DNA of 64,000 bases. Origin: Alphaproteobacteria bacterium. GTDB taxonomy: Bacteria > Pseudomonadota > Alphaproteobacteria > Rs-D84 > CACZYB01. This document shows, in pieces, positions 33,486 to 54,406 of this stretch. Below the pieces are notes generated by a model. It was not told the origin of the DNA and searched no databases. It saw only the letters and a list, made by a program, of their open reading frames with translations. The stretch spans positions 2,264 through 66,263 of the forward strand of contig JAGBBO010000027.1 in the NCBI GenBank assembly GCA_017938435.1, written 5' to 3'. Position numbers and translations under genes: made by a program. Position 1 is the first letter of the stretch, and each line of letters begins with the position of its first letter.

Positions 33486-33677
33486 TTTTCAACCTCATCA
33501 AAATGTATAAAAATAGGATATCATACATTATTCAAAAATACAAGTTTAAAGCATTTAATATCACTAATTACATAAAGTAATATCTTAAAAATATCTTGCA
33601 AATATAGGAAAAGATTCGTATAATTACAACGATTTTAAATAACTGCCCAAAAATGGCTATAATTTAAGGAAATTTTC

Positions 33678-34409: not shown

Positions 34410-34412
34410 TAT

Positions 34413-36259: not shown

Positions 36260-36262
36260 AAT

Positions 36263-37108: not shown

Positions 37109-37111
37109 AAA

Positions 37112-39048: not shown

Positions 39049-39303
39049 CTACTTTACCTCCACCTTCAAAGCATAATTATCCCATTCATTATTTTGCCCA
39101 GTCACCAAAGAAACCACCGAAGTTACAATCAAATGAGCATCCTCGAAATCCAAAATAATTTCATCGCCAACCCTTGGAACAACATTATCTGGTAAAGAAT
39201 TAGAAAAAAGAAAAACCGTATCAAGAGCAAGAGAAACCTTAACATCTAAAATTTTATCACCATACACAAATTTTGCATCAAAAATCATTTTTTCCCCTTT
39301 CAT
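39049..39303 (-). CDS. hypothetical small protein (84 aa)
   Basis: ORF directly upstream of, and contiguous with, the YjbR-like gene. Confidence 0.35.
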   Translation of the reverse strand: MKGEKMIFDAKFVYGDKILDVKVSLALDTVFLFSNSLPDNVVPRVGDEIILDFEDAHLIVTSVVSLVTGQNNEWDNYALKVEVK

Positions 39304-39523
39304 TATCCAAAAACAAGATAACTCAATTTTATAAAAAAGTCAAGAACAAAATGAAAACAAACATTAAAAATTAAACGGTCCTTAATTTTTTAATATTATT
39401 TAAATTTCCACCAAAAATCAAAAAATATAGACATTTCCTAGTTTTGAATAAATTCCTTGAAAAATCATATAACTTATTTTAATATTGCAAATTAAACCAC
39501 CGTTTTTATAAAAGGAATTATAA

Positions 39524-41182: not shown

Positions 41183-41235
41183 AATGGATTACTGTAAGGG
41201 ATAATATATAATAAATTTTTATAAGGACTAAAAAA

Positions 41236-42627
41236 ATGTTATTTTCATCTATGACTTTTATATTTTTATTTTTACCAATCGTTTGTTCACTATACTTGTT
41301 GGTAAAGGATAAGTTTAAAAACCATATTTTATTGATTGCAAGTATTTTATTTTATGCTTGGGGTGAACCAAAATATTTATCAATAATGCTTTTAACCATA
41401 ATAATAAATTATTTTGGGGCTTTTTACCTTGATAAATTTCCAAAATATAAAAAGGCAATTTTAACCACAACTATCATTGCGGATTTAGCATTTCTTATTT
41501 ACTTCAAATACTTTAATTTCATAATGGAAAACCTTAACACCTTATTCACATCTGATTTTAATTTTATTGATGTAGTAATGCCTATTGGAATTTCATTTTA
41601 TACATTCCAAGCCATGTCATATTTGATTGATGTTTATCGCGGAGATACAAAAGTTCAAAAAGATATTTTAAAGCTCGCCCTTTACATTTGTTTATTTCCT
41701 CAACTTATTGCGGGACCTATTGTGCAATACAGCGATGTTGATAAGCAAATTGATAACCGCGAGGAAAATTTTGAAAAGGTTGTCTATGGTGTAAAAAGGT
41801 TTATCATTGGACTTGCAAAAAAGGTTTTAATTGCAAATACTTTGGGTGCAGTCGCAGATAAAATTTTTGACACATCTGTATTTGAAGTTCAAACCAGTAT
41901 TGCTTGGATTGGTGCTATCGCTTACAGTTTTCAACTATTTTATGATTTTAGTGGATATTCAGATATGGCCATAGGTCTTGGCTCTATATTTGGTTTCAAA
42001 TTTTTGGAAAATTTCAACTACCCATACATTTCAAAATCCATCACTGAATTTTGGAGAAGATGGCATATTTCTCTTTCATCATGGTTTAAAAATTACCTTT
42101 ATATTCCTCTTGGTGGAAATAGAAAAGGAAAAATTCGCACCTATATCAATTTGTTTATAGTCTTCCTTGCAACTGGAATTTGGCACGGGGCAAGTTGGAA
42201 TTTTATCGTATGGGGTTTGTGGCACGGTATGTTTAACATAATTGAAAAACTTACAGGTTTTAATAAAAAAGAGGGTAAAAAAATAGCCATAGTTCAACAT
42301 ATCTATACTCTATTTATAGTAGTAATTGGTTGGGTAATGTTCAGGGCAAAAAATCTTACAAATGCGATTGAATATATTGAAAATATGTTTGGACTTTTCA
42401 AAAACTATCCAGCTTTCAAAATATCATATTACATAGATAATATTGAAAAAATAATGTTTATTGCCGCAATCTTATGTGCAATGCCAATATTCAAACATTT
42501 TGCGGAAAAGCCAAAAAATAAATATATTCATATTTTGGTTAATATTTGGATTATGATTTTGTTCTTCCTATCGGTTACATCAATCGCAGCATCAACATAT
42601 AATCCATTTATATATTTCAGATTTTAA
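41236..42627 (+). CDS. MBOAT family membrane-bound O-acyltransferase (AlgI/DltB/PatA-like)
   Basis: 463 aa multi-TM. Conserved His region WHISLSSWFKNYLYIPLGGNRKG. Confidence 0.85.
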   Translation: MLFSSMTFIFLFLPIVCSLYLLVKDKFKNHILLIASILFYAWGEPKYLSIMLLTIIINYFGAFYLDKFPKYKKAILTTTIIADLAFLIYFKYFNFIMENLNTLFTSDFNFIDVVMPIGISFYTFQAMSYLIDVYRGDTKVQKDILKLALYICLFPQLIAGPIVQYSDVDKQIDNREENFEKVVYGVKRFIIGLAKKVLIANTLGAVADKIFDTSVFEVQTSIAWIGAIAYSFQLFYDFSGYSDMAIGLGSIFGFKFLENFNYPYISKSITEFWRRWHISLSSWFKNYLYIPLGGNRKGKIRTYINLFIVFLATGIWHGASWNFIVWGLWHGMFNIIEKLTGFNKKEGKKIAIVQHIYTLFIVVIGWVMFRAKNLTNAIEYIENMFGLFKNYPAFKISYYIDNIEKIMFIAAILCAMPIFKHFAEKPKNKYIHILVNIWIMILFFLSVTSIAASTYNPFIYFRF

Positions 42628-42693
42628 AGGAATAAAAAAGATATTACCAAGACAAACAAAGAGAACTTTAATCATTTTTTTATAAAAATCTAG

Positions 42694-43422
42694 TTATTTT
42701 AGATTTTTCGTCATATTGTGTAAATGAGCATTTGTCATTTCTTTTTTTTCACCATCAATATCATACATATAACCTGATACAGCTTTACCATCTTTAAAAT
42801 TTACTTCTTCTTTTAAATTTCCATTATTATAATAGGCTTTGGACAAACCTTCCAGCTTACCATCTTTATAATTTTCTTCTGCTTCTAAATTTCCGTTTTC
42901 ATAATAGGTTTTGGACAAACCTTCCTCCTTACCATCTTTATAATTTACTTCTACTTTTAAATTTCCATTATTATAATATCCTTTGCCTAAACCTTCCTCC
43001 TTATCATCTTTAAAATTTTCTTCTGCTTTTAAATTTCCGTTTTCATAATAGGCTTTGGACAAACCTTCCGGCTTACCATCTTTATAATTTCTTTCTGCTC
43101 TTAAATTACCATTATCATAATAGAATTTGCTTAAACCTTCTAGTTTATTATCTTTATAATTTACTTCTTCCTTCAAATTTCCATTATTATAATATACTTT
43201 GCCTAAACCTTCCAACTTACCATCTTTATAATTTACTTCTACCTTCAAATTTCCATTATCATAATAACGTTTTACAATTCCTGTAATTGGCTCTCCTTCC
43301 AAATCACAAAGCATAAGAATTGCATTTTGAGAACAATCTTTAGTTTCATTTACATTATATTCTTTTGCATTAGCTGTAAATGATGTAATTAAAGCAAATA
43401 GTGTAATTATAAGTTTCTTCAT
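42694..43422 (-). CDS. MORN/YwqK-type repeat lipoprotein (8 tandem 23-aa repeats)
   Basis: Signal peptide. Repeats of YY-NGNLK-E-NYKDGK-EGL. The underlying DNA is a 69-bp tandem repeat array. Confidence 0.8.
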   Translation of the reverse strand: MKKLIITLFALITSFTANAKEYNVNETKDCSQNAILMLCDLEGEPITGIVKRYYDNGNLKVEVNYKDGKLEGLGKVYYNNGNLKEEVNYKDNKLEGLSKFYYDNGNLRAERNYKDGKPEGLSKAYYENGNLKAEENFKDDKEEGLGKGYYNNGNLKVEVNYKDGKEEGLSKTYYENGNLEAEENYKDGKLEGLSKAYYNNGNLKEEVNFKDGKAVSGYMYDIDGEKKEMTNAHLHNMTKNLK

Positions 43423-43562: not shown

Positions 43563-43599
43563 GTAAAATCAATGAGTTAAGTTGGTGCAGATGGCCGGA
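43563..43599. repeat. attL: 37-bp direct repeat copy of the tRNA-Leu 3' end plus flank
   Basis: agtaaaatcaatgagttaagttggtgcagatggccgga matches 54296..54332 with one mismatch. Confidence 0.85.
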
Positions 43600-43941
43600 T
43601 TTCCGACATACCCAAAATTTACCCTAAAAAGCTTAGTTATCTAACAACCTCACTTTTTTATTTTCATCTAATGCAATACATCTTGCATTACATTTATTAA
43701 TTATAAACTAAAACAATACAATCGTAAACGTTTTTTTAAATAATACACATTATATATATTATAAGGGGGAGTACCCTAGAAGGGGAACCCCGGGGATACC
43801 TAATGGGGAGAGGGAACCCCTGGTACCTAGTATCTCGGATGTGTGATGTGGACCTGGAGCCCTAACAAAAAAATACTCAATTTTAAAAAGGCCCTTATAC
43901 GCGCGGAAAGATTTTTTAAAAGTCAAAATTTCACTAGGATA

Positions 43942-45105
43942 TTATTTATATTGTTTCATTAACTTTTCATAGTTGCTTAATGAATTATCAACCGCTTCAA
44001 TCATTTCACAAACCTTTTGTTTATCAATATCAAACTCAGATGCAACGGTAATAAAATCATCATTGGTAATATCTTTACCCTTACCATTTACCATTGTTGT
44101 TTGCTCTCCATTTATTCCAAACGAAGGTGTTAAATCGTATGCAGGAGCTAGTTTCCAATTATTATTCCTATCAATCAAATATGAAAAATTCTTTGTATGG
44201 TCATCCTTATTACCTGCTTTAACATTAAATATCATAAGACGAACCATTTTTTCAACTTCCTTAATATCTTTTGTTAAGACAAAAGTAAGTTTTAAAAGGT
44301 TTGTATAATCCATACTTGAAACACGAAAATCAGCATTAAGTAAACCACATGCAGTATGAGTATGAACTTTTTGATTTCCTACTCGGTCAAATCTTTTTAC
44401 ACCAAAATATCCACTGGAAATTTGTGATGGAAATAAATAAGTTTCAGGCATTTCAATACCTGCATCCTTTGCAATAAGTGAATAAACATACTCTTGAACA
44501 CCAAGGTTTTTATCATCCTGAGTATTTGAAAATTTTATAAGCCAATGTGAAAAATTATCAGGAAAATCCTTTGATGGAGAAAGTATTGTTTTTTTATCAT
44601 TAGATACCAACGCAACAATTTTTGGTCTTGCACCACCAGATGAACCATTTAATTTCAAAAGTTCATCAAGACCATTATTTGATTTATCAAGTAATATTTT
44701 CTTTGCATCTTGTGCCAAAAAATCCAAATTTACATCAGGCATATCATCAATATCTTCAGATGGTTCATATTCCAATGCTCCCATAGGATTATTACCCACC
44801 ATTGAAAGCCTATGAAGTGGCCTTATTGAATTAAATGACAAACCTTGTTTTTGTAATTTCCTATCAAGAAGTAAACACCCCCAACCATCCGGAAGACTAT
44901 CATTAAATACACCAAATAAACCACCAAAAATACTATTATCACCTTCAAATACTCTTTCCTGTAAAGGTAGTTTAAAAGGTGAAATTTCAATACCTTCCTT
45001 TATAAATTCAGGTGCATATTGAAAATAAATTTTTGCACCTATATCTTCCAATACACCTACAAATTTTCTTGAACCATAAGTATTAAGGTATACATTTAAT
45101 TTCAT
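43942..45105 (-). CDS. hipA: type II toxin-antitoxin HipA-family serine/threonine kinase toxin
   Basis: 387 aa. HipA N-terminal and C-terminal kinase-like regions. Overlaps the upstream HTH gene by 4 nt. Confidence 0.8.
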   Translation of the reverse strand: MKLNVYLNTYGSRKFVGVLEDIGAKIYFQYAPEFIKEGIEISPFKLPLQERVFEGDNSIFGGLFGVFNDSLPDGWGCLLLDRKLQKQGLSFNSIRPLHRLSMVGNNPMGALEYEPSEDIDDMPDVNLDFLAQDAKKILLDKSNNGLDELLKLNGSSGGARPKIVALVSNDKKTILSPSKDFPDNFSHWLIKFSNTQDDKNLGVQEYVYSLIAKDAGIEMPETYLFPSQISSGYFGVKRFDRVGNQKVHTHTACGLLNADFRVSSMDYTNLLKLTFVLTKDIKEVEKMVRLMIFNVKAGNKDDHTKNFSYLIDRNNNWKLAPAYDLTPSFGINGEQTTMVNGKGKDITNDDFITVASEFDIDKQKVCEMIEAVDNSLSNYEKLMKQYK

Positions 45106-45422
45106 TTTAATTTACCTCTTTTACGTTGTTTTACTTTAACAGGATTGATTAACGATACAGGTTTATCATCAGGTTTAAGTAAATTATCAAACTCATCCAA
45201 TACATTTAATATCAAAGCAATTTTTAATAATGCTTGTAATGATATTTCTCCACTATTTTCAAAACGTTTTAATGTTCCAAGTGAAACACCCGAACGTTCG
45301 GATAAACCTTCTTGTGTAAGGTTTTTATCCAACCTTTTTTGTTTAAACCGAAATGCAATTTCCTTTTGCACCTCTTGATTTGTTTTTAATAAATATGCCA
45401 TAATAGTCAATATATTATCCAT
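45102..45422 (-). CDS. hipB: HipB-like XRE-family HTH antitoxin/repressor
   Basis: HTH LTQEGLSERSGVSLGTLKRFENSG. Alternative start at 45401 (MAYLL...). Confidence 0.7.
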   Translation of the reverse strand: MDNILTIMAYLLKTNQEVQKEIAFRFKQKRLDKNLTQEGLSERSGVSLGTLKRFENSGEISLQALLKIALILNVLDEFDNLLKPDDKPVSLINPVKVKQRKRGKLK

Positions 45423-45466
45423 TAAATTGATTATTTATATATAATATACAATATATTATCCATTAA
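45408..45466. promoter_or_regulatory. two perfect 18-bp direct repeats (caatatattatccattaa) at the hipB start, a candidate HipB operator/promoter
   Basis: Copies at 45408..45425 and 45449..45466. They contain the TATCC core typical of HipB operators. Confidence 0.45.
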
Positions 45467-45501
45467 GTAAAGTAAAAAATAAAATATTCATTATATAATA
45501 T

Positions 45502-45536
45502 TAACTTCGTTTCAACTCGAACGAAGTTATTTTTTA
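45502..45536 (+). terminator. 10-bp perfect stem-loop plus T-run (terminator-like hairpin) in the hipB/methyltransferase divergent region
   Basis: taacttcgtt-tcaactcg-aacgaagtta-TTTTTT. Confidence 0.45.
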
Positions 45537-45763
45537 TACTAATGAAAAAATATTAAAAAAAAATTTTACATAATTTCCCCGTAAAATCAACAGGTTAGCA
45601 TTTTATATATAAAACAACTAATTCGGAGCCGTATGTTTTTAAAATTTTTACCCATTCTTTATATATAGAGGGTGAATTTTACCCTACTACAACTTTTGTT
45701 GTTTTACATCGTGAATAAGCTCTCCCCCTAATTTTTAAACAAAATTTTAAGGAAACATTTAAA

Positions 45764-46696
45764 ATGATTTTTAAAGATGATTTTGATAGAAATATTGAAG
45801 CAATACGTCTCGAAAGAGAGACTTTAGATAAACAACTCAAAGAAGAAGAGTCTAATAGCTCTCGAAATTCTTATGTAAAATTTACAAATGAATTAATCGA
45901 AAAATCTATTTTACTCTTAAGACTTGAGTTTGAAAAAATCAAACCTCTTTTGAATGAGACACCAAGTGCCCAGGGAGCAAGAACCGATATTGACTCTAAG
46001 GTTATGACAAAACAATTTGTCGAACAAATACTCAACCTAAAACACAAACAGGCTTGGGAAATCCAACAACTAACCAAAGAGTCTGTCGACCTTGCAATCG
46101 ATTACGCAAAAGAAAATAATATCTTAGCCACTCGTTCCTTAGCACTCAGATTACTTCAAAAAAATAAAAAAGAAGAGTCAATTCATATCAATCCATCCGA
46201 AATTTATGATGATGAAGAAATTATTGAAGAAAAAAGTCAAATCAAAAATAATACCTTATATAATGTAATATACATTGATTTGACTAATTCATACAATAAA
46301 AATGATTTGACTCATCTCCCTATAGCAGATGATGCAATTTGTTTTGTCTGGACCAAACCAAATGACTTATCAAAAGCATTATCTACTATAAATGAACTTG
46401 GTTTTGTATATCAAAATAGCCTCGTCTGGGATAAAGATATTAAAAATACAAATACTTATATCCAAAACCACCACGAGCTACTTTTAATAGGTTTAAAAAA
46501 TAAATATAAAATTAATCAAAATAATAAATTTATATTTGATTCAATTTATTTTGAACACCAAACAAACAAAACCACTAAACCAGACTATTATTATTCTTCA
46601 ATCGAAAAAATATGTCCAAACCAAAAATATTTAGAAGTCTTTTCTGACAGAAAATATAGCGAAAAATGGACTGTTTTCGGAGGTAAAAATGAATAA
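45764..46696 (+). CDS. MT-A70-like (Dam-like N6-adenine methyltransferase fold) protein with degenerate DPPW motif (YIDLTN), N-terminal coiled-coil
   Basis: Motifs VIYIDLTNSY / AICFVWT / LVWDKD / HELLLIGLKN / C-terminal KWTVFGGKNE align with MT-A70 family blocks. The catalytic PPW is lost. Confidence 0.55.
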   Translation: MIFKDDFDRNIEAIRLERETLDKQLKEEESNSSRNSYVKFTNELIEKSILLLRLEFEKIKPLLNETPSAQGARTDIDSKVMTKQFVEQILNLKHKQAWEIQQLTKESVDLAIDYAKENNILATRSLALRLLQKNKKEESIHINPSEIYDDEEIIEEKSQIKNNTLYNVIYIDLTNSYNKNDLTHLPIADDAICFVWTKPNDLSKALSTINELGFVYQNSLVWDKDIKNTNTYIQNHHELLLIGLKNKYKINQNNKFIFDSIYFEHQTNKTTKPDYYYSSIEKICPNQKYLEVFSDRKYSEKWTVFGGKNE

Positions 46697-47813
46697 TAAT
46701 ACAAATATAGTAAAATACCTATCCCTCTTTTCTTGTGGGGGGATAGGTACTTATCTATTAAAAGATATTGGTTTTAAATGTGCTGTTTCAAATGAATTGG
46801 ATATAGTCCGAGCTACATATCACCAAGATTTATATAAAGATGATAAAATGATTATTGGTGATATAAGAGAAAAGAAAAAGGAAATAATCCAATCCTATAT
46901 TGAAACTGGTTGTTCGGGAATATTAGCATCCCCTATATGTCAACCTTTTTCATTAGCTGGTGGTCAACATCTTAACGACCCGGAAACATTACTATTTTTG
47001 GATGTTTTAGATATTACCCAAGCTACAAATCCTGATTTTTTATTGATTGAAAATGTTCCTTACTTCATATCAGATAAACAATCTCCAATTATTACAAATA
47101 AATTGGGTGGTAAAACTATCAAACAATACATCACAGATTTTTTAACAAATCTTGGTTATGAAGTAAACATTAACAAAATAAAAGCATGTGATTATGGAAC
47201 CGCACAAAAAAGGGAAAGAGGAATAATCCTTGCATGTAAAAAGGAATTTGGTAAATGGAATTTTCCAAAGAAAGATGATAAAATTTTAACATTAAAAGAT
47301 GTTATAGGTAATGGAAGATTTAAATCACTGGAACCTGGTGAACGTGATAAAAATAATCCACTACACTATGCAGAATATGTTAATCCAGACCAAGCGGAAT
47401 GTTTAAGACATACACCAACCGGTCAATCAGCTTTATTAAATATTGGTAAATGGAAAATAAAAAATATCAACGGAACTGAATCAAAAGCTCAACATAAAAG
47501 TGCTTTTGGTAGAGCTAAATGGGATGAACCATGCCCAACTATTGTTATGTCTAGTGATAGTATAAGTGGTGATTGGTCTGTTCATCCTGGTTATAAAAAA
47601 CCTGATGGTACTTATTCCGACCCAAGACCTTTTTCCATTGCAGAACTTTTCGCAATTACCGGTCTCCCAGACACTTATTATAATGATATACCTGACTGGG
47701 CAAAAGGTAATCACAAACTTTTACGACAATTAGTTGGTGAAAGTTTTTGTCCTCTGGTTGTAAAAAGACTTATGCAAGAGTTGAAAAAAGTTTTACCAGC
47801 TTTTAAATCTTAA
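46689..47813 (+). CDS. DNA (cytosine-5)-methyltransferase
   Basis: Motif I LFSCGGIG, motif IV SPICQPFSLAGG, motif VI IENVP, C-terminal GESFCPLV. Starts 8 nt before the upstream gene's stop. Confidence 0.9.
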   Translation: MNNNTNIVKYLSLFSCGGIGTYLLKDIGFKCAVSNELDIVRATYHQDLYKDDKMIIGDIREKKKEIIQSYIETGCSGILASPICQPFSLAGGQHLNDPETLLFLDVLDITQATNPDFLLIENVPYFISDKQSPIITNKLGGKTIKQYITDFLTNLGYEVNINKIKACDYGTAQKRERGIILACKKEFGKWNFPKKDDKILTLKDVIGNGRFKSLEPGERDKNNPLHYAEYVNPDQAECLRHTPTGQSALLNIGKWKIKNINGTESKAQHKSAFGRAKWDEPCPTIVMSSDSISGDWSVHPGYKKPDGTYSDPRPFSIAELFAITGLPDTYYNDIPDWAKGNHKLLRQLVGESFCPLVVKRLMQELKKVLPAFKS

Positions 47814-47820
47814 ACGAAAG

Positions 47821-47853
47821 ACACCTCATATTAAATTATGGGGTGTTTTTTTA
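47821..47853 (+). terminator. rho-independent terminator after the C5-methyltransferase gene
   Basis: 9-bp stem acacctcat/atggggtgt (one G.U pair), 8-nt loop, T7. Confidence 0.75.
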
Positions 47854-48061
47854 TACCTAAAAAATTCCCGAAAGTCTGAATCAAAATTGAAGTCGGTTCT
47901 ACAGATTGTGCACATACATAGGATTTTGGGATATTTAAGGCTGTTAATCGCTTAAAAGTTAACAAAATCCGTTTGATTATAACAATAGGATTTACAACAA
48001 AATCCTTTGTCACTTTTATACCCTAATTTTTTAAAAATAATTATTTAAGGATTGCATAAAA

Positions 48062-48532
48062 ATGACAAACTTAAAAACTGAATTAATAAAATGGATTGAT
48101 AACACTTACAAGCCGAAATATCTTATGACAATACAACTTCCGGAAAATTTGAAGAGTAATAATCTTGAACATTCCATAAATCATTTAAAAAGTATTATGA
48201 GAGATTTTGAAAAATTTTTACTTAAAAGACATTGGAATAAAAAACATTTACCATTTATAGCATTTGCAGAAAATGGAATATCAAAGGATTGGCATTTTCA
48301 CTTGTTACTAAATGGTGATAACTTTTCATATATTGATTTAAAAATTGCAATATATAGGATAATTTTAAAACAAAAAATACCAACATATTGTATACAACTT
48401 GATAAAATTGAAGATGGTATAGCCAAAGTTGAATCCTACACAATTAAGGAAATAAAAATAACGGATTTTAATAAATTTGATAGTGATAGGATGATACTTT
48501 CACAAGATTTATTTAATATTGAAAAGAAATAA
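48062..48532 (+). CDS. small HUH-motif protein (possible Rep/relaxase-like or Y1-transposase-like endonuclease)
   Basis: KDWHFHLLLNG (His-hydrophobic-His-3 hydrophobic) followed about 60 aa later by ESYTIKEIK (YxxK). Preceded by a 7-mer repeat array. Assignment is speculative. Confidence 0.3.
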   Translation: MTNLKTELIKWIDNTYKPKYLMTIQLPENLKSNNLEHSINHLKSIMRDFEKFLLKRHWNKKHLPFIAFAENGISKDWHFHLLLNGDNFSYIDLKIAIYRIILKQKIPTYCIQLDKIEDGIAKVESYTIKEIKITDFNKFDSDRMILSQDLFNIEKK

Positions 48533-48638
48533 TCAATCCCTTTCTACCCCATATCAACGAAACAACCTTAGATTATAAATTATAAGCCAGAACTGTAACT
48601 ACTCAATTCTGGCTTATTTATGTGAATTTATGGAATGT

Positions 48639-48953
48639 TTAGTATTCTTCTGCTAACATAACAGTCATTACTCTAATGGTCTTTGTTATATCTGCAGGAT
48701 TATCTGAGTAGTATTGTAAATTCCGGTCATAATAATCAATTTTCCACATTATCTTTTCACCATCATACTCAAAACTTCCGTAATCGTGTTCATTGTATGG
48801 GTCATTTTTGTGGTTGAAATCATTGAACATCTTCACACTATCCAAGATTTCATTTATTGCTTTTTGCCCCTTACTGAAAATGCCTCTGGTCAACATCACT
48901 TTTCCACCTAAAAGGCTTTTACGGAAGTTATCATTTAATGTTATAATATCCAT
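48639..48953 (-). CDS. hypothetical protein, possibly DUF3768-like (mobile-element associated)
   Basis: C-terminus ...TIRVMTVMLAEEY resembles the DUF3768 family. From memory only. Confidence 0.35.
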   Translation of the reverse strand: MDIITLNDNFRKSLLGGKVMLTRGIFSKGQKAINEILDSVKMFNDFNHKNDPYNEHDYGSFEYDGEKIMWKIDYYDRNLQYYSDNPADITKTIRVMTVMLAEEY

Positions 48954-48955
48954 TT

Positions 48956-49084
48956 TTATATCCTTACAATTTCAGTTACTACAACATGACCACGTTGTTT
49001 TTCTGCTCTACATGCATTCATTGCATCACGAAGTTTATAGTAAATCGTAGGCATTAAAATTCCGTTTACTTTTATTTGAAACAT
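48956..49084 (-). CDS. small ORF (42 aa), translationally coupled within a three-gene operon
   Basis: Its ATG lies 1 nt after the upstream stop and its stop lies 2 nt before the downstream start. Below the ORF-track size cutoff. Found by reading the sequence. Confidence 0.25.
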   Translation of the reverse strand: MFQIKVNGILMPTIYYKLRDAMNACRAEKQRGHVVVTEIVRI

Positions 49085-49085
49085 C

Positions 49086-49337
49086 TTATCTAACCTCCAC
49101 ACTCAAGAATTTATTAAATCTACGCAAAGCCTGTTTAACTGATGTATGGCTTCTATTACCATAAGCATATTTATCTCCAGTTTCATATTCAGGAAGTATA
49201 TTTGCAATATTTTGAATAAGCATATCCAAGGAGATGTTTTCCTTTTTGCAAAGTCTTTCAATTCTGCCTTCATAATCTTTAGCAGTGTTGATTTTATAGT
49301 TGTTTTCGATTAACCAATTTTTAAATTTTTTAAGCAT
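49086..49337 (-). CDS. hypothetical small protein (83 aa)
   Basis: First gene of the tightly coupled minus-strand operon. Divergent from the RM gene. Confidence 0.35.
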   Translation of the reverse strand: MLKKFKNWLIENNYKINTAKDYEGRIERLCKKENISLDMLIQNIANILPEYETGDKYAYGNRSHTSVKQALRRFNKFLSVEVR

Positions 49338-49679
49338 TTTTAAACCCTTTCATTTTTGTTTTTACATATATAATTATGTCGTGTTGTTTTGGGTTTGTAA
49401 GCGAAAAAATGCATAAAAACGCAAGAAAAATAGCCATTTTTGAGTAAAAATTAAGAATTTTATAGGTTTGTATTGCTGGGAACACAAACCTTATTACATC
49501 GATGTAACAAACTTTACATTAATTATTTGTAGTGTAAAACTACGGACAAATTATTTGTTACTCATTTTAGGTGACAATTAGTTAACGTGTTTTATCCCGA
49601 AACATATAACAAAAATTTTGATTTTATTCATAAACTATGATATAATTTTAAAAGATAAAATTATTATTGGAGTTATCAA

Positions 49680-51596
49680 ATGGCAAAAAAGGAAGCAAAA
49701 ACCGATTTGTGGGTATATAAATTATTAACTCAAGCAGATATTGAACTTGAACCTCAAGGAAGTTCCATTAAAGAAATTAATGAAGCATTAAAAACAGCCT
49801 CCAAAAAAGGAACAGGCAATGTCGGTTATCCTGAATATGTAGGTATTGTAAAAGATTTTATTTTAGTTATTGAAGATAAAGCTGATATTAATAAACATAT
49901 CAACAAAGAAAATGATATTATACTTCAAGACCCAAATTCATGTGTCGATTATGCAGTCAATGGAGCATTATTTTATGCAAAACATTTAATAAAAAATACA
50001 TCCTTTAAAAAAGTAATTGCATTTGGGATTTCAGGCAATCAAAAAATACATAAAATAAGCCCTATTTTCGTTGATACAACAGAATATTATAGGGAATTAC
50101 CAGATGTTGAATCCTTTATAAGTTTTAATGATAAAAACATTATGGAATATTACACCCATGAAATATTAAAGGAAGAGACAAACATTGAAAAGGAAACCGA
50201 GGAAATCCTAAAAGATGCAAGCCAACTTCATGAAGATTTAAGAAATTATGGAAATTTAACCGATACCGAAAAACCACTAGTAGTTTCAGGTATTTTACTT
50301 GCTTTGGATGAAGCTGAACAAGGAAATTTTTCCATTGATAATTTAACTGGGGATAGTATAAAAACTGATGGTCAAAAAATATACAATGCTATACAAGATA
50401 ATCTTAAGCGAGTTAGAGTTGCTCCTGATGTTAAAAGGGATAAAATATTATCACAATTTTCCGTAATAAAAGATGCTACGAAGTTAAATGAAAAGGATGA
50501 TACATTAGGTAAAACTCCTTTAAAATATTATGCAGAGTTTTTATATGAAAAAATTTATAAATCAATAAAATATAATAGTTCTGCAGAGGATTTTATCGGT
50601 CGTTTTTATGGCGAATTTATGAGTTATAGTGGTAATAATGGTCAAAGTTTAGGTATTGTTTTAACACCAAAACATATAACTCAATTATTCTGTGATTTAC
50701 TTGATTTACAATCTGACGATAAAATCCTTGACCCTTGTTGTGGAACTGGTGGTTTCCTTATTGCGGCAATGCATAACATGTTTGCAAAAGCAAAAAATCC
50801 TAATGAAAGGGAAAACATAAGACAAAATCAACTTTTTGGTTTTGAATTACAACCTTATATGTTTGCTATTGCAACAACAAATATGATTTTAAGGGGTGAT
50901 GGTAAGAGTAATTTACAATGTGAAGATTTCTTGAAACAACCAAGTAATAAACTTCAACTAAATGGTTGTAATGTTGGTATGATGAATCCTCCATACAGTC
51001 AAGGTTCAAAGAAAAATCCAAACCTTTATGAAATTGCATTTGTCGAACATTTGCTTGATTCACTTGTAAAAGGTGGAAAATGTGCTGTTATTGTCCCACA
51101 ATCATCTATGACCGGGAAATCAAAGGAAGAAGCAGCTATAAAACAAAATATATTAAAACATCATACATTGGAAGGTGTAATTACACTAAACAAAGATACA
51201 TTTTATGGTATCGGAACCATGCCTTGTATTGCTATATTTACAGCAGGGAAACCTCACGACAAAGACCATATTTGTAAATTTATCAATTTTGAAAATGATG
51301 GTTATAAAGTTGCTCCACATATTGGATTACTTGAAACCGAAAGTGCAAAAGATAAAAAACAACATTTACTTGATGTCTGGTTTGATAAAGTTAATGAAGT
51401 TCCAACAAAATTCTGTGTAAAAACGACAGTTGAAGATACTGACGAATGGTTGCACAGTTTTTATTATTTTAATGACGAAATCCCAACTGATGAAGATTTT
51501 GAAAAAACTGTTGGTGACTATTTATCATTTGAATTTTCAATGATTATGCAAGGCCGTAAATACCTTTTTGAAGAGGAGGATATTGAAAATGCTTAA
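49680..51596 (+). CDS. BcgI-A-like fused restriction endonuclease / N6-adenine methyltransferase subunit (Type IIB/IIG-like)
   Basis: N-terminal PEY-x13-IEDK (PD-(D/E)xK-like) region. Motif I LDPCCGTGGFL. Motif IV MMNPPYS. 638 aa (BcgIA is 637 aa). No separate HsdR nearby. Confidence 0.65.
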   Translation: MAKKEAKTDLWVYKLLTQADIELEPQGSSIKEINEALKTASKKGTGNVGYPEYVGIVKDFILVIEDKADINKHINKENDIILQDPNSCVDYAVNGALFYAKHLIKNTSFKKVIAFGISGNQKIHKISPIFVDTTEYYRELPDVESFISFNDKNIMEYYTHEILKEETNIEKETEEILKDASQLHEDLRNYGNLTDTEKPLVVSGILLALDEAEQGNFSIDNLTGDSIKTDGQKIYNAIQDNLKRVRVAPDVKRDKILSQFSVIKDATKLNEKDDTLGKTPLKYYAEFLYEKIYKSIKYNSSAEDFIGRFYGEFMSYSGNNGQSLGIVLTPKHITQLFCDLLDLQSDDKILDPCCGTGGFLIAAMHNMFAKAKNPNERENIRQNQLFGFELQPYMFAIATTNMILRGDGKSNLQCEDFLKQPSNKLQLNGCNVGMMNPPYSQGSKKNPNLYEIAFVEHLLDSLVKGGKCAVIVPQSSMTGKSKEEAAIKQNILKHHTLEGVITLNKDTFYGIGTMPCIAIFTAGKPHDKDHICKFINFENDGYKVAPHIGLLETESAKDKKQHLLDVWFDKVNEVPTKFCVKTTVEDTDEWLHSFYYFNDEIPTDEDFEKTVGDYLSFEFSMIMQGRKYLFEEEDIENA

Positions 51597-52116
51597 GTTA
51601 ACTGATAGGAAATGGAAAGAGTTTAAAGTTGGTGATTTATTTACTATTGAAAAATGTAAATGTTCAAATGCTTCATTATTTAATTCAGGTAATATTCCTT
51701 ATGTAGGAGCAACTAATAAAAATAATGGAACAATGAATTTTATAACAACTGATAAAAAGTATATAACAAAAGGAAATTGCTTAGTTTTTATTTGTGATGG
51801 TCAGGGGTCTGTTGGATATTCAATATATAAAAAGGAAAATTTTGTTGGTTCAACAACACTTAAAATAGGAAGGAATCCACTACTAAATGAACATAATGCA
51901 TTATTTTTCACAACATCACTTGATAAAAATAAAAATATATATAGTTATGGTTATAAAAGAAATGAAAACAGATTAAAAAATGAACATATTCTTCTTCCTG
52001 TAAATAACACAAATCTTCCCGATTATAAGTTTATGGAAGACTACATTAAGGAAGTTATGATAAGAAAACGTAAGGAATATATAAGCTATGCTGAATCCAA
52101 ACTAATGGGGGGGTAA
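51568..52116 (+). CDS. HsdS-like specificity subunit, N-terminal half (TRD1), truncated at a poly-G tract
   Basis: The HsdS target-recognition-domain-like sequence overlaps the upstream gene's end. Terminates at TAA immediately after G7. Confidence 0.7.
   Translation: MKRRILKMLKLTDRKWKEFKVGDLFTIEKCKCSNASLFNSGNIPYVGATNKNNGTMNFITTDKKYITKGNCLVFICDGQGSVGYSIYKKENFVGSTTLKIGRNPLLNEHNALFFTTSLDKNKNIYSYGYKRNENRLKNEHILLPVNNTNLPDYKFMEDYIKEVMIRKRKEYISYAESKLMGG
52107..52113 (+). repeat. homopolymeric G7 tract separating the two halves of the specificity gene
   Basis: Direct read: aatGGGGGGGtaa. A +1 G puts 51568..52649 in one frame with no intervening stop. Confidence 0.9.
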
Positions 52117-52232
52117 AATATCAGCAAATTCAAACACTTAGAGATAAAAAGTGGAAAGAATTTAGTATTATAAATTTATTTGATAGTATACAAAGAGGAA
52201 AACGTCTTATAAAGGATAATCAAACAAAAGGT

Positions 52233-52649
52233 ATGATACCTTATGTTTCATCAACTTCACTTAACAATGGTATTGATAATTTTATTTCCTATGAAAAATC
52301 ATCAATGAGGAAATTTAACAATTGTTTAAGCCTTGCAAACAGTGGTAGTGTTGGTTCAACTTTTTATGAACCATTTTCTTTTGTGGCAAGTGACCATATA
52401 ACTCATTTAAAAAATAAATCCTTTAATCAAAATACATATTTATTTTTAGCTTCCCTATGTAATCGTTTATCAAAAAAATATAATTTCAACAGAGAAATAA
52501 ATGATACAAGAATTTCAAGGGAAAAAATAATGCTTCCTGTAAATTCCGATGGAGAACCTGATTATAAATTCATGGAAGATTATATTTCAAATATAACATA
52601 TAATAAATATAATGATTATATAACCTATGCAAAATCACAAATTTGCTAA
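52233..52649 (+). CDS. HsdS-like specificity subunit, C-terminal half (TRD2); the frame is open upstream to about 52117
   Basis: Second TRD. It ends with the same DYKFMEDYI...YITYAKSQI conserved repeat as half 1. Confidence 0.65.
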   Translation: MIPYVSSTSLNNGIDNFISYEKSSMRKFNNCLSLANSGSVGSTFYEPFSFVASDHITHLKNKSFNQNTYLFLASLCNRLSKKYNFNREINDTRISREKIMLPVNSDGEPDYKFMEDYISNITYNKYNDYITYAKSQIC

Positions 52650-52675
52650 ACAACCTCATTCCAACAGGAATAAAG

Positions 52676-54187
52676 TTATTTCTTTGCCATAATCTTCTTC
52701 CACTTATCAAATTCAGGTTGAAGGAAGTCATAACTAAATTTTTCATACTCTTCTTTGATTTGTTTTAAACTAAAATTTGAGTAAGATTGTTCCATTGTAT
52801 CTTTACCTTCCCATCCAATGATTGCATTTATAATTGTTGGAATCAAACCTGCAGATTGCAAAGCCAAACTTGCATTTTTACGGAAAGAATGGAAATCATA
52901 ACCTTTGTCTTTTACACCTATTTCCTTAAAAAACTTAAATAAATATCTATCCAAATATTTATTATTATATTCACCACCACTAGTTAAAATTTTTGAAAGT
53001 ATAAAATCATCATTTTTCTTACTTTCCTTAATTTTTTTGAATTCAAAATATTCAACAAAACCAAGGTCTAGCAACTGTTTATGTATTGGAACAATTCGTT
53101 CCGATGCATCATTTTTCAAATGCTTTATAGCATGATTTTCTTTAAATTCAAAACAATACATACCATCTTTTACAATTATATCACCGTATTGCAAAGTTGT
53201 TGCTGCATTTGCACGGGCACCAGTAAATAAAGCAACTAAACAAATCCAAAATAATTCAGGATTATCCTTAAAAAATTCATGTTTTGGATTAAATATTTCC
53301 TTAAGTTGAACTTCACTATATGGCAAATGAGGTTGTCTTTCACTCTTTTTTGTTTTTTCAATTTTTGGCATAGATACAAGAATATTTTTCTTGTAAAAAT
53401 CAGGTTCAAGTTCACATGCAAAACAGACAAATTCCTTTATATATCTAAGTTTCTGACGCTTATTGTCGTTTTTTACATTAACATCATTAGCTATATCTTG
53501 TGAAATTTTATCAATAATATCTGTTTTATGAAAAGTTGAATAATCATCATCTGGAGATAAACCTAATTTTGTAAAAACTCCATTGAAAAAGTTAGTCTTA
53601 CGCTTAGTCTCAGCTTCACAATTATTTGCATTTTGAAGCATTTTTTCCAAAATGTACTTAAGTGTATGTTTAGGAGGTGTAATATTAGCATTACTTCCTG
53701 CAACAAATGGAATTCCACCTTGTTTTTCAATTAAATCTGCTAATTTCTTGAATTTTTCAAAATTTTCAACAACTTGCTTTTCTTGCCTATACTTTTCAAT
53801 ATTTGCATTTATATCAGAAAATACCTTCATAAACTCAATCAATGTTTCAGGCTTATTATTTTTTGATAAAACTAACTCATCAGGAATATTAAGCATAAAT
53901 CCATATCCCCCAAATACTGAAGATTGGTTTCGACGCCAATAAACATTAATTTGTGAATATAATTGACTGAGTTTATTAAACTTGTCATTAAAATCATTAA
54001 TTTCAACCATCTTAGCCAAAGCCTCATAATAATCATTTGTATATAAGGAATAGCACAAATAACGTCTTTTTCCTTCCACTCTTGGTAATTCCATTCTACA
54101 ATAAAAAAACCCATTCCTCAACCATAAATGTGGCTTAATTTTTGTTTTTGCCATACACTTTGCCATACAGTTGCTAAACATTTGCAA
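52676..54187 (-). CDS. tyrosine site-specific recombinase (phage-type integrase)
   Basis: C-terminal catalytic region with the R...HSFRKN...GW...Y pattern. 503 aa. Adjacent to the tRNA attachment site. Confidence 0.8.
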   Translation of the reverse strand: MQMFSNCMAKCMAKTKIKPHLWLRNGFFYCRMELPRVEGKRRYLCYSLYTNDYYEALAKMVEINDFNDKFNKLSQLYSQINVYWRRNQSSVFGGYGFMLNIPDELVLSKNNKPETLIEFMKVFSDINANIEKYRQEKQVVENFEKFKKLADLIEKQGGIPFVAGSNANITPPKHTLKYILEKMLQNANNCEAETKRKTNFFNGVFTKLGLSPDDDYSTFHKTDIIDKISQDIANDVNVKNDNKRQKLRYIKEFVCFACELEPDFYKKNILVSMPKIEKTKKSERQPHLPYSEVQLKEIFNPKHEFFKDNPELFWICLVALFTGARANAATTLQYGDIIVKDGMYCFEFKENHAIKHLKNDASERIVPIHKQLLDLGFVEYFEFKKIKESKKNDDFILSKILTSGGEYNNKYLDRYLFKFFKEIGVKDKGYDFHSFRKNASLALQSAGLIPTIINAIIGWEGKDTMEQSYSNFSLKQIKEEYEKFSYDFLQPEFDKWKKIMAKK

Positions 54188-54315
54188 AATCCCCTAACCT
54201 TTTTACAGCATCAAAAATGCTAAGTTATTGTTTTTACAAGTATTTTGCAAAAGATAAAAATTTAAACTTTATAAAAAGTTAAAATAAATAAGTGAGTAAA
54301 TTCAATGAGTTAAGT

Positions 54316-54406
54316 TGGTGCAGATGGCCGGAATCGAACCGGCACGGACGTTTAAATGTCCGAGGGATTTTAAGTCCCTTGCGTCTACCTGTTCCGCCAC
54401 ATCTGC
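54316..54406 (-). tRNA. tRNA-Leu (anticodon UAA), class II with long variable arm, encoded CCA
   Basis: Reverse complement folds as acceptor GCAGATG/CATCTGC, anticodon stem AGGGA/TCCCT with loop CTTAAAA (anticodon TAA), an 18-nt variable arm and T-loop GGTTCGATTCC. Confidence 0.85.

What the first reader, a model, noticed from the sequence alone, without database searches (positions are those of the whole stretch)
47915..48532. HUH-motif small ORF preceded by an array of AGGATTT/AAATCCT 7-mers (possible ori-like or operator module)
The 156-aa protein has WHFHLLL (a His-hydrophobic-His motif) and a downstream YTIK (YxxK). This is the motif order found in rolling-circle Rep proteins, relaxases and Y1 transposases. 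Upstream, five copies of the 7-mer AGGATTT or its complement occur at 47920, 47964, 47987, 47999 and 48048 in alternating orientation. They include an AGGATTT-N5-AAATCCT hairpin. This could be an origin or nick site, or an operator. It would give the island a means of replication or mobilisation after excision.
Basis: inference. Interest (0 to 1): 0.5.

Follow-up and report, generated by a model that had tools for sequence, protein, structure and literature searches.

The report
Small HUH nickase with hairpin origin
A 156-residue protein on a 10.7-kb island inserted in a tRNA gene is a genuine rolling-circle (HUH) DNA-nicking enzyme, and a conserved hairpin that looks like its origin lies just upstream, so the island probably copies or transfers itself after excision, a known type of mobile element in a new bacterial group.

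Summary
The ORF at 48062-48532 is real and is an HUH endonuclease of the Rep class. It passes Pfam REP_ORF2-G2P. Across 60 diverse relatives only eight positions are at least 90% conserved, and they include E70, H78, H80, Y126 and K129. A confident AlphaFold model puts Y126 on a helix, and the best solved-structure match is the AAV Rep nuclease domain.

The "7-mer array" is only partly right. Three copies are exact and two match 6 of 7 bases. They are not iterons. Four of them are the arms of two hairpins, and the fifth is the ribosome-binding site.

Hairpin A (47921-47970) is conserved upstream of the gene in distant relatives. Its stems covary and its apex GGCTGTWAATCGC is invariant, which is the layout of a Rep-type nick site. 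A second conserved block, CCTTTGTYAYT..TATAC, follows hairpin B.

The gene lies in a 10.7-kb island (43569-54332) in tRNA-Leu, bounded by 31-bp direct repeats and carrying a tyrosine integrase. Relatives at only 21-29% identity again sit beside an integrase in tRNA-inserted islands of 4-9 kb.

Best reading: this is the rolling-circle initiator or relaxase of an integrative, probably mobilizable, element of gut Alphaproteobacteria. It is a new member of a known kind. No activity has been shown.

The parts
48062..48532 (+). Gene for a 156-aa single-domain HUH (Rep-class) endonuclease. Motif I is LMTIQLP (residues 21-27). E70 is the putative third metal ligand. The HUH motif is H78-F-H80, and the catalytic motif is Y126-T-I-K129.
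   Evidence: ORF. Pfam PF23343 above the gathering score; 19 of 21 homologues also match. E70, H78, H80, Y126 and K129 are kept in 59 of 60 representatives. AF2 model with pLDDT 92.8, Y126 on helix 121-128. The AAV Rep nuclease domain is the best solved match.
47921..47970 (+). Hairpin A, the candidate nick or origin hairpin. Inner stem: 47934-47939 with 47951-47956.
   Evidence: ssDNA fold. The consensus structure has 7 of 14 pairs with compensatory changes. 91.4% of cells are paired against 77% in shuffles (0 of 500) and 40-60% when partners are slid. A covariance model finds it upstream of HUH genes in loci that were not used to build it (L058, E 3.6e-5; L052, E 0.02).
47939..47951 (+). Invariant apex of hairpin A, GGCTGTTAATCGC. 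The nonamer CTGTWAATC is at 47941-47949. This is the predicted nick region.
   Evidence: The apex is nearly invariant while the stems change. Of 30 occurrences of the nonamer in 1.56 Mb of loci, 14 lie in the 1 kb upstream of HUH genes on the same strand. It is kept in a hairpin loop 75 nt upstream of a homologue that is 29% identical (L048).
47987..48006 (+).
   Evidence: A short AGGA/TCCT or AGA/TCT stem recurs at this position in other loci, but it is thermodynamically weak in most of them (z about 0 to -1.3).
48004..48021 (+). Conserved block B, CCTTTGTCACTTTTATAC, directly 3' of hairpin B. It could be an alternative nick site (relaxase-type layout), a Rep-binding site or a promoter element.
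   Evidence: An nhmmer profile finds it upstream of the HUH gene, on the same strand, in about 30 loci including the group at about 50% identity. It does not match the sigma-70 consensus on the + strand.
48047..48051 (+). Shine-Dalgarno sequence AAGGA, 10 nt before the ATG.
   Evidence: Read from the sequence. Inference.
47822..47852 (+). Intrinsic terminator of the upstream Dcm gene (CACCTCAT...ATGGGGTG followed by a T run). It marks the left edge of the cis region.
   Evidence: Conserved in L001 and L005. Read from the sequence.
48582..48617 (.). Hairpin with a 14-bp stem between the convergent HUH and DUF3768 genes, probably a bidirectional terminator.
48639..49337 (-). Conserved companion operon: DUF3768 (48639-48953), a 48-aa ORF (48956-49102) and an 83-aa ORF (49086-49337).
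   Evidence: Pfam DUF3768, E 2e-32. Synteny with the HUH gene in about 35 loci. DUF3768 is found on 490 plasmids, mostly alphaproteobacterial, of which 71% are predicted conjugative or mobilizable. In plasmid p17 it lies between a recombinase gene and the T4CP gene, with MobA/MobL just beyond.
45764..47813 (+). Two DNA methyltransferase genes directly upstream of the cis region, with no nuclease partner identified: MT-A70 (45764-46696) and a C5 Dcm-type enzyme (46689-47813).
   Evidence: A methyltransferase occupies this position in many loci.
52676..54187 (-). Tyrosine integrase of the island (503 aa).
   Evidence: Pfam Phage_integrase and PHROG 1.
43569..43599 (+). Left copy of the island's 31-bp direct repeat (att), TCAATGAGTTAAGTTGGTGCAGATGGCCGGA.
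54302..54332 (+). Right copy of the same repeat. It overlaps the 3' end of tRNA-Leu(taa), which lies at 54316-54406 on the - strand.

Best explanation
The ORF encodes a minimal, single-domain HUH endonuclease of the Rep class. It is a core gene of a 10.7-kb integrative element inserted in tRNA-Leu (43569-54332).

Proposed mechanism:
1. The tyrosine integrase excises the island as a circle. This is inferred from the att repeats and the integrase gene.
2. The HUH protein binds the hairpin region directly upstream of its own gene. It uses a metal held by E70, H78 and H80.
3. Y126 cuts one strand and becomes covalently joined to the 5' end. The most likely site is the invariant apex CTGTTAATC of hairpin A, the Rep-type layout. 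The alternative is block B, just 3' of hairpin B, the relaxase-type layout.
4. The free 3'-OH then primes rolling-circle synthesis by host polymerase and helicase.

This would serve to maintain or amplify the excised circle, or to hand a single strand to the type IV secretion system of a helper element (mobilisation), or both. The two roles are combined in the relaxases of ICEBs1 and Tn916.

Shown here: family membership, conservation of the active-site residues, the fold, the conserved covarying hairpin, the island boundaries, and the recurrent partnership with an integrase.
Inferred: nicking, the exact nick site, and the choice between replication and transfer.
For: Protein:
- Pfam REP_ORF2-G2P scores above its gathering cut-off, and 19 of 21 homologues also match.
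- In 60 representatives at 21-51% identity, only W58, F65, E70, H78, H80, Y126, K129 and F151 are at least 90% conserved.
- The motif order I - HUH - YxxK is that of Reps, not of relaxases (PMC4814116).
- The AF2 model has pLDDT 92.8, a beta-alpha-beta-beta-alpha-beta-alpha core, and Y126 on a helix. HUH enzymes are described as always having this Tyr on a helix (PMC5714925).

Cis element:
- The stems of hairpin A covary around an invariant apex.
- The nonamer is about 30-fold enriched upstream of HUH genes and is retained in L048, whose protein is only 29% identical.
- The region folds as two hairpins in ssDNA, with z = -3.0.
- Rep nick sites lie in hairpin loops.

Context:
- The island has a 31-bp direct repeat at a tRNA gene and its own integrase.
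- The HUH gene is syntenic with DUF3768 and small ORFs in about 35 loci, and an integrase was found in eleven of them (nine distinct).
- Distant members sit in tRNA-inserted islands of 4.2-9 kb whose recognisable genes include an integrase and, in L047 and L048, a small HTH protein, beside the HUH gene. L049 has an unannotated 72-aa ORF in that position.
- Streptococcal integrative mobilizable elements pair an integrase with RCR-initiator-like proteins in the same way (PMC5704250).
Against: - No biochemical or read-level evidence of nicking, circular forms or replication was obtained. No attP junction was found in JGI metagenomes, and none of the 25 metagenome loci is a circular contig.
- The island has no helicase, primase, coupling protein or recognisable single-strand origin.
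- No relatives were found on sequenced plasmids or phages, so there is no independent replicon that shows Rep function for this family.
- The window-type hairpin A is found in only about 8 lineages. Other lineages have shorter variants. Hairpin B is weak.
- The hairpins lie between a terminator and the start codon, so a purely regulatory role is possible.
Confidence: 0.6

Rival explanations
1. The protein is an active HUH enzyme, but the upstream hairpins are only transcriptional or translational control elements: an operator for autorepression, or a 5'-UTR structure. On this reading the real nick site lies elsewhere, or the enzyme acts in trans on another element.
For: The element lies between the Dcm terminator and the start codon. 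Block B (48006-48019) is 93% complementary to the start-codon region at 48056-48069 (pair I3), which could hide the ribosome-binding site in an mRNA. Covarying stems with a conserved loop are also typical of regulatory RNAs.
Against: There is no Rfam match and no sigma-70 consensus over block B. In the group at about 50% identity the element lies 650-850 nt from the HUH core, which is far for an operator or 5' UTR. An invariant loop on variable stems directly upstream of a rep gene is the classic layout of a double-strand origin. No second copy of the element exists in the island that could serve as another target.
Confidence: 0.15
2. The gene is a remnant or satellite of an ssDNA phage (an inovirus, plectrovirus or microvirus Rep captured by an integrase island). 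It would be used for phage-type replication and for packaging by a helper phage, not for conjugation or plasmid-like maintenance.
For: The Pfam family is named after phage ORF2/G2P proteins. The viral fold hits include microvirus and ORF2/G2P Reps. There is a weak match to PHROG 3584, 'replication initiation protein' (E 0.05).
Against: No relatives were found in IMG/VR or in 50,697 phage records. No coat, Zot-like or morphogenesis genes appear in any of the loci inspected. The protein is unrelated to Ff gpII (hhalign probability 0.1%; M13 gpII belongs to Pfam Phage_CRI). The conserved neighbour DUF3768 is a plasmid gene, not a phage gene.
Confidence: 0.07
3. The protein is a domesticated HUH domain that no longer nicks DNA. 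It could be a DNA-binding regulator or an accessory factor of the integrase, for example one that sets recombination directionality.
For: It is very small (156 aa) and has no helicase or oligomerisation domain. It always sits with an integrase.
Against: Almost the only residues conserved across the family are the catalytic set E70, H78, H80, Y126 and K129. That is not expected once catalysis has been lost.
Confidence: 0.05
4. It is a Y1 transposase of the IS200/IS605 or RAYT type that moves a small unit bounded by subterminal hairpins.
For: The size is similar (about 150 aa), it has a single Tyr, and there are hairpins next to the gene.
Against: Pfam Y1_Tnp does not match even at E <= 10. The conserved hairpin element is on one side of the gene only. 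In 39 of the 44 loci compared the gene lies with at least one other island gene, so it does not look like a dispersed short repeat. The motif is YxxK, as in Reps.
Confidence: 0.03

Closest known systems
Integrative and mobilizable elements (IMEs) of streptococci that encode RCR-initiator-like putative relaxases (Rep_2/PF01719, PHA00330, Viral_Rep, MobT); PMC5704250 and PMC5357655
   Same: These are small chromosomal elements, often inserted in tRNA or ribosomal-protein genes. They carry their own integrase and a Rep-class HUH or Rep-like protein, have no mating-pore genes, and carry variable cargo. [quoted passage not shown]
   Different: The host here is uncultured gut Alphaproteobacteria or Rickettsiales-like bacteria, not Firmicutes. 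The HUH protein is a bare domain of about 156 aa from a different Pfam family. There is no TcpA-type coupling protein. The cargo is mainly defence genes (restriction-modification, toxin-antitoxin, Abi). Transfer is untested.
Pfam PF23343 REP_ORF2-G2P (replication-associated proteins ORF2/G2P of ssDNA phages)
   Same: The protein scores above the gathering threshold, aligned over residues 32-129 to profile positions 10-97 of 99, which covers the HUH and Tyr motifs.
   Different: The score is only 2 bits above the cut-off. The protein is chromosomal and island-borne, and no phage or plasmid relatives were detected.
AAV Rep / parvovirus NS1 N-terminal nuclease (origin-binding) domain (PDB 1m55, 1uut)
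   Same: This is the best solved structural match. It has the same motif order, with a Glu and two His as metal ligands and a Tyr on a helix, and it recognises a DNA stem-loop.
Relaxases that double as rolling-circle initiators in integrated elements (ICEBs1 NicK, Tn916 Orf20), as summarised in PMC5704250
   Same: One nicking enzyme, acting at one site of an excised integrative element, supports both autonomous rolling-circle replication and transfer.
   Different: [quoted passage not shown]
Double-strand origins of RCR plasmids and CRESS-DNA viruses (for example pMV158 and the geminivirus/circovirus nonanucleotide). This comparison rests on general knowledge and PMC4814116.
   Same: A conserved short sequence is displayed in the loop of a hairpin whose stem varies, located next to the rep gene.
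   Different: The apex sequence here, CTGTWAATC, is different. There is a second conserved block (B) 3' of a second hairpin. The nick site has not been mapped.

Membership tests
HUH endonuclease superfamily, Rep class | HUH motif: two His separated by a hydrophobic residue, on a beta-strand | tested here: met
   W-H78-F-H80-LLL. Both His are kept in 59 of 60 representatives and lie on strand 77-83 in the model.
HUH endonuclease superfamily, Rep class | Catalytic Tyr motif (YxxK) C-terminal to the HUH motif | tested here: met
   Y126-T-I-K129, kept in 59 of 60. This is the order found in Reps, not relaxases (PMC4814116).
HUH endonuclease superfamily, Rep class | Catalytic Tyr lies on an alpha-helix | tested here: met
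   Helix 121-128 in the model built with 60 sequences (pLDDT 92.8). The region was not helical in the shallower 21-sequence model. The criterion comes from PMC5714925.
HUH endonuclease superfamily, Rep class | Motif I (hydrophobic-hydrophobic-Thr-hydrophobic) on the first strand, and an acidic third metal ligand | tested here: met
   The consensus is FLTIQLP, on strand 20-25. E70 is kept in 59 of 60 and lies on strand 65-71, next to the HUH strand. The role as metal ligand is inferred.
HUH endonuclease superfamily, Rep class | Fold similar to solved HUH nuclease domains | tested here: met
HUH endonuclease superfamily, Rep class | Metal-dependent ssDNA cleavage with a covalent 5'-phosphotyrosine link | not testable with these tools
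   Needs biochemistry.
Pfam PF23343 REP_ORF2-G2P | Whole-protein score at or above the curated gathering threshold | tested here: met
   29.7 bits against 27.8. 19 of 21 homologues match at E <= 0.1.
Canonical conjugative relaxases (MOB F/P/Q/V families) | Catalytic Tyr N-terminal to the His motif, and a match to relaxase profiles | tested here: not met
   The Tyr is C-terminal to the HUH motif. No relaxase family appears in Pfam at E <= 10 or in NCBIfam.
RCR plasmid Rep families (Rep_1, Rep_2, Rep_trans) and Ff gpII (Phage_CRI) | Sequence-profile match | tested here: not met
   Only PF23343 is reported at E <= 10. hhalign against M13 gpII gives probability 0.1%, and M13 gpII belongs to PF05144/PF05155.
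Y1 transposases (IS200/IS605, RAYT) | Y1_Tnp profile match, hairpins at both ends of a short mobile unit, and dispersed copies | tested here: not met
   No PF01797 match. The conserved element is on one side only. In 39 of the 44 loci compared the gene lies with at least one other island gene.
Integrative and mobilizable element (IME) | Own integrase and att sites bounding the element | tested here: met
   31-bp direct repeats at 43569 and 54302, tRNA-Leu, and the integrase gene at 52676-54187. Direct repeats also bound the islands in L001, L047, L048 and L049.
Integrative and mobilizable element (IME) | No mating-pore (T4SS) genes of its own | tested here: met
   All island ORFs of at least 90 aa are assigned to HipAB, methyltransferases, HUH, DUF3768, HsdM/S or the integrase.
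Integrative and mobilizable element (IME) | A functional oriT and relaxase, and transfer with a helper element | not testable with these tools
   Only indirect hints. The HUH protein and hairpin are candidates. DUF3768 is shared with conjugative and mobilizable plasmids.

The most novel reading that the evidence does not exclude
The gene marks an undescribed and widespread family of minimal tRNA-targeting integrative elements in Alphaproteobacteria, from gut RF32-like lineages (my tentative label; the records say only uncultured Alphaproteobacteria) to Rickettsiales-like MAGs. The elements are 4-12 kb. Their only shared machinery is a tyrosine integrase and a stand-alone HUH nickase of about 150 aa with its own hairpin origin. 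This would be one of the smallest self-contained Rep/relaxase modules known, and it serves as a chassis that shuttles defence cargo (restriction-modification, toxin-antitoxin, Abi). Such elements would extend the 'Rep-like relaxase IME' idea from Firmicutes to Proteobacteria, and they would offer a very compact HUH tag with a defined hairpin substrate.
Probability: 0.35. Interest if true: 0.55.

Novelty: new member of a known kind. Interest (0 to 1): 0.4.

Why it matters
If the inference holds, genomic islands of poorly known gut Alphaproteobacteria carry their own rolling-circle initiator and origin. That would explain how these small defence-gene islands persist after excision and spread between cells.

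It also provides a precise hypothesis that can be tested at the bench: the protein, the hairpin at 47921-47970 and the apex CTGTTAATC. The protein would be a very small HUH domain that could be used for covalent protein-DNA tagging.

It does not overturn any concept. Integrase-plus-Rep-like elements are already known in Firmicutes.

Tried and rejected
1. Iteron or operator array of AGGATTT. Rejected. The 7-mer is not conserved upstream of homologues at 73-86% identity. Four copies are hairpin arms and the fifth is the Shine-Dalgarno sequence.
2. Canonical sigma-70 promoter over block B. No match on the + strand, and manual spacing checks do not fit.
3. Known RNA family. No Rfam hit in the island apart from the tRNA.
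4. Homology to Ff phage gpII and its origin. M13 has a similar layout, with a hairpin about 240 nt upstream of gene II. However, gpII is Pfam Phage_CRI and hhalign gives probability 0.1%. The name 'G2P' in PF23343 does not refer to M13 gpII.
5. Relatives on phages, viral contigs or plasmids. None found.
6. Evidence of an excised circle. There was no attP junction in JGI metagenomes and no terminal overlaps in 25 metagenome contigs. This is uninformative rather than negative.
7. Known defence system. PADLOC has nothing for HUH, DUF3768 or the two small ORFs.
8. Extra domains in longer family members. No Pfam domain was found in the N-terminal extensions.
9. Hairpin B as a stable conserved structure. 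It is weak in most loci.
10. Sequence search against solved structures. Nothing was found. The afdb50 fold library was unavailable.
11. Literature on DUF3768/PF12599 or PF23343. No papers in the library.
Full report
**1. Checking the observation**

The ORF at 48062..48532 (+) exists. It encodes 156 aa, with WHFHLLL at residues 77-83 and YTIK at 126-129.

Of the five reported 7-mers, three are exact: AGGATTT at 47920 and 47987, and AAATCCT at 48000. The other two match 6 of 7 bases: AAATCC-g at 47965 and AGGATT-g at 48048. The hairpin spacer is 6 nt, not 5.

The 7-mer is not enriched over the whole window (26 copies against 23.1 +/- 4.6 in shuffles). The shared core GGATT/AATCC, however, occurs five times in 140 nt against 0.39 expected. 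No other 140-nt stretch of the window reaches that count. The cluster is therefore real, although the statistic was computed after the k-mer had been chosen.

**2. The protein**

Family membership:
- Pfam gives one hit, PF23343 REP_ORF2-G2P. It has E 8e-7 and 29.7 bits against a gathering cut-off of 27.8, and aligns residues 32-129 to profile positions 10-97 of 99.
- NCBIfam gives nothing. PHROGs gives only a weak 'replication initiation protein' hit.
- No Rep_1, Rep_2, Rep_trans, Y1_Tnp or relaxase model appears, even at E <= 10.

Size of the family:
- A search of 5.8 billion proteins returned 20 homologues of 95-243 aa.
- An exhaustive profile search of 1.8 billion cluster representatives found 183 clusters (63 with E below 1e-30), most of them 150-360 aa long. 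This is a distinct family of modest size.

Conserved residues:
- In an alignment of 60 representatives at 21-51% identity, only eight columns are at least 90% conserved: W58, F65, E70, H78, H80, Y126, K129 and F151.
- 59 of the 60 keep FLT.Q.P (motif I), F..AE, WH.H.LL (HUH) and Y..K.
- The order motif I - HUH - YxxK is the Rep order. Relaxases have the Tyr N-terminal to the HUH motif (PMC4814116).

Structure:
- An AlphaFold model built with 21 sequences was acceptable (pLDDT 82).
- With 60 sequences it became confident (pLDDT 92.8, pTM 0.87). It shows strands at 20-25, 65-71 (E70), 77-83 (HUH) and 111-115, helices at 35-57 and 90-104, and Y126 on helix 121-128. HUH enzymes are described as always having this Tyr on a helix (PMC5714925).
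Foldseek against the PDB puts AAV Rep nuclease domains on top (1uut and 1m55, probability 0.99 and 0.97, TM about 0.46).
- In the viral library, all but one of the named hits are HUH replication proteins. The exception is an uncharacterised protein of an insect-associated ssDNA molecule.
- A sequence search against solved structures found nothing.

Conclusion: the protein is a bona fide Rep-class HUH endonuclease domain with no other domain attached.

**3. The upstream DNA**

An alignment with the two closest divergent loci (proteins 86% and 73% identical) shows that the 7-mer array is not conserved. Only the first copy persists. What is conserved is structure.

*Hairpin A.*
- The 7-mers at 47920 and 47965 are the outer arms of an imperfect hairpin of about 50 nt (47921-47970).
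- Its apex GGCTGTTAATCGC (47939-47951) recurs upstream of HUH genes in loci whose proteins are only 37-55% identical, while both stem segments change in a compensatory way. For example, the window has TTAAG/CTTAA and GGATTTTG/CAAAATCC; L008 has TTGGAG/CTCCAA and CAGACTTT/AAAGTCTG; L035 has TCAGAG/CTCTGA.
- On ten distinct sequences, RNAalifold predicts 14 pairs, 7 of them with double changes.
- 91.4% of cells are paired, against 77% in column shuffles (0 of 500 reach the observed value) and 40-60% when partners are slid. The covariation score is 0.58 against 0.28.
- The nonamer CTGTWAATC occurs 30 times in 1.56 Mb of collected loci. Fourteen of these lie within 1 kb upstream of an HUH gene on its strand, where about 0.5 would be expected. 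They represent roughly seven independent lineages.
- In L048, whose protein is 29% identical, CTGTAAATC again sits in a hairpin loop, 75 nt before the start codon.
- A covariance model of hairpin A found it in two loci that were not used to build it: L058 (E 3.6e-5) and L052 (E 0.02).
- Other lineages carry shorter variants, such as GCTG-TTAAAT-CAGC and ACCG-TTAAAT-CGGT, which again covary.

*Hairpin B and block B.*
- The 7-mers at 47987 and 48000 form hairpin B. It is followed directly by CCTTTGTCACTTTTATAC (48004-48021).
- This block is the most widely conserved non-coding sequence. An nhmmer profile finds it upstream of the HUH gene, on the same strand, in about 30 loci.
- The stem of hairpin B is short and weak in most loci.

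*Other points.*
- The fifth '7-mer' overlaps AAGGA, 10 nt before the ATG, which is the ribosome-binding site.
- As single-stranded DNA the region folds into exactly these two hairpins (-13.8 kcal/mol against -6.7 +/- 2.3 for shuffles, z = -3.0).
- There is no Rfam family and no sigma-70 consensus match over block B.
- According to PMC4814116, Rep nick sites lie in the loop of a hairpin and relaxase nick sites lie 3' of a hairpin. Hairpin A fits the first layout and block B the second. Because the protein has the Rep motif order, I favour the apex of hairpin A as the nick site, but this is inference.

**4. Context**

*The island.*
- A 31-bp direct repeat (43569-43599 and 54302-54332) overlaps the 3' end of tRNA-Leu(taa) and bounds a 10.7-kb island.
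- Its genes are HipA/HipB, two methyltransferases with no nuclease partner identified (MT-A70 and Dcm), the cis region, HUH, a convergent operon of DUF3768, a 48-aa ORF and an 83-aa ORF, HsdM with split HsdS, and a 503-aa tyrosine integrase.

*Related loci.*
- Thirty-eight genome loci, nearly all from uncultured gut Alphaproteobacteria MAGs, and 25 metagenome loci carry relatives.
- The order [methyltransferase] - cis region - HUH - (variable cargo) - DUF3768 - small ORFs is conserved. An integrase was found in eleven of the loci, nine of them distinct.
- The cargo differs between loci: type I and type II restriction-modification systems, HigBA, HipBA and AbiJ.

*Distant members.* Three distant members (21-29% identity) are the most informative. 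Each lies in a small island inserted in a tRNA gene and bounded by direct repeats.
- L047, from a Rickettsiales MAG, is about 4.5 kb. The repeat is only 13 bp, so this boundary is tentative.
- L049 is about 4.2 kb.
- L048 is about 9.1 kb.
- Their recognisable genes include a tyrosine integrase and, in L047 and L048, a small HTH protein, beside the HUH gene. L049 has an unannotated 72-aa ORF in that position.
- HUH is therefore core machinery of the element, not cargo.

*Links to other element types.*
- No relatives were found in IMG/VR, in 50,697 phage records or in 72,556 plasmids.
- DUF3768, in contrast, is on 490 plasmids, mainly alphaproteobacterial, of which 71% are predicted conjugative or mobilizable. 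In plasmid p17 it lies between a recombinase gene and the T4CP gene, with MobA/MobL just beyond. This is a weak hint of a link to conjugation.

**5. Mechanism**

The best-supported reading has four steps:
1. The integrase excises the island.
2. The HUH protein nicks the hairpin origin next to its gene, most probably at the apex of hairpin A.
3. The protein becomes linked to the 5' end through Y126.
4. Rolling-circle synthesis by host enzymes follows. It serves maintenance of the circle, delivery of a single strand to a helper's secretion system, or both.

Both uses are documented for one enzyme in ICEBs1 and Tn916, and are proposed for the Rep-like proteins of streptococcal IMEs (PMC5704250).

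Identity, active-site conservation, fold, the conserved hairpin and the island architecture are shown. Nicking, the nick site and the biological outcome are inferred.

I found no direct trace of circles: no attP junction and no circular contigs. These tests had little power.

**6. Comparison with known systems, and novelty**

The protein passes the tests for the HUH Rep class and for PF23343. It fails those for canonical relaxases, plasmid Rep_1/Rep_2/Rep_trans, Ff gpII and Y1 transposases.

The element behaves like the IMEs with Rep-like relaxases described in Firmicutes. It differs in three ways:
- it occurs in Alphaproteobacteria;
- its HUH protein is unusually small and stands alone;
- it has a defined hairpin with the apex CTGTWAATC.

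I found no paper on this family. I rate it a new member of a known kind. It is of moderate interest, mainly because it gives a precise, testable origin-plus-nickase pair and reveals a family of minimal integrase-plus-HUH islands.

Noticed in passing
window 43569-54332: The island boundaries are exact. A 31-bp direct repeat, TCAATGAGTTAAGTTGGTGCAGATGGCCGGA, occurs at 43569 and 54302, and the right copy overlaps the 3' end of tRNA-Leu(taa). The island is 10.7 kb. About 100 bp just inside the left end (43662-43761) is 77% identical to the matching position in L001 (7184-7282), so it may hold integrase arm sites.
   Followed up: partly
window 43760-43860: A G+C-rich patch with GGGG/CCCC runs (GGGGGAGTACCCTAGAAGGGGAACCCCGGGGATACC...) lies in an otherwise AT-rich non-coding stretch between the left att repeat and hipA. 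It is conserved at 93% in L046. It does not fold better than shuffled sequence (z = +0.9). Its function is unknown.
   Followed up: partly
window 48006-48019 and 48056-48069: The conserved block B (TTTGTCACTTTTAT) is 93% complementary over 14 nt to the stretch that covers the HUH start codon (ATAAAAATGACAAA) (pair I3). This could couple origin or promoter use to translation, or it could be chance in AT-rich DNA. It is only partly kept in close relatives.
   Followed up: partly
window 48533-48638; L045 4178-4990; L027 10695-11174: The short gap between the HUH gene and the DUF3768 operon is a hotspot for cargo insertion. Relatives carry an AbiJ-like gene, a 159-aa ORF that I did not annotate (L027), or several kilobases of other genes at this exact position.
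   Followed up: partly
window 48956-49337 (- strand): The 83-aa ORF is conserved with HUH in nearly all loci (34-85% identity) but has no significant Pfam match and no PHROG or PADLOC match. By eye it resembles the N-terminal SAM-like (core-binding) domain of phage integrases, so it could be a DNA-binding accessory or directionality factor. The 48-aa ORF next to it is also conserved.
   Followed up: no
window 49680-52649: The island's type I-like restriction-modification module looks incomplete. It has a 638-aa HsdM with a long N-terminal extension and an HsdS split into two ORFs (51568-52116 and 52233-52649), and no HsdR gene.
   Followed up: no
L008 and L011 (MAG JAFUSU01); L013 and L017 (MAG CALXWA01): Some genomes carry two islands of this family on different contigs, each with its own HUH gene, cis element and DUF3768 operon.
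   Followed up: no
window 32000-43000: About 10 kb just outside the island has the lowest G+C of the window (0.23-0.27, against 0.30-0.36 elsewhere). It may be a second horizontally acquired region. I did not examine it.
   Followed up: no
L018 6973-9087; L027 7463-9586: In the group at about 50% identity, the methyltransferase upstream of the cis region is a fusion protein of about 705 aa: a long N-terminal region of unknown function followed by a C5-methylase domain. The HUH genes in this group have N-terminal extensions of 40-200 aa with no Pfam domain.
   Followed up: partly
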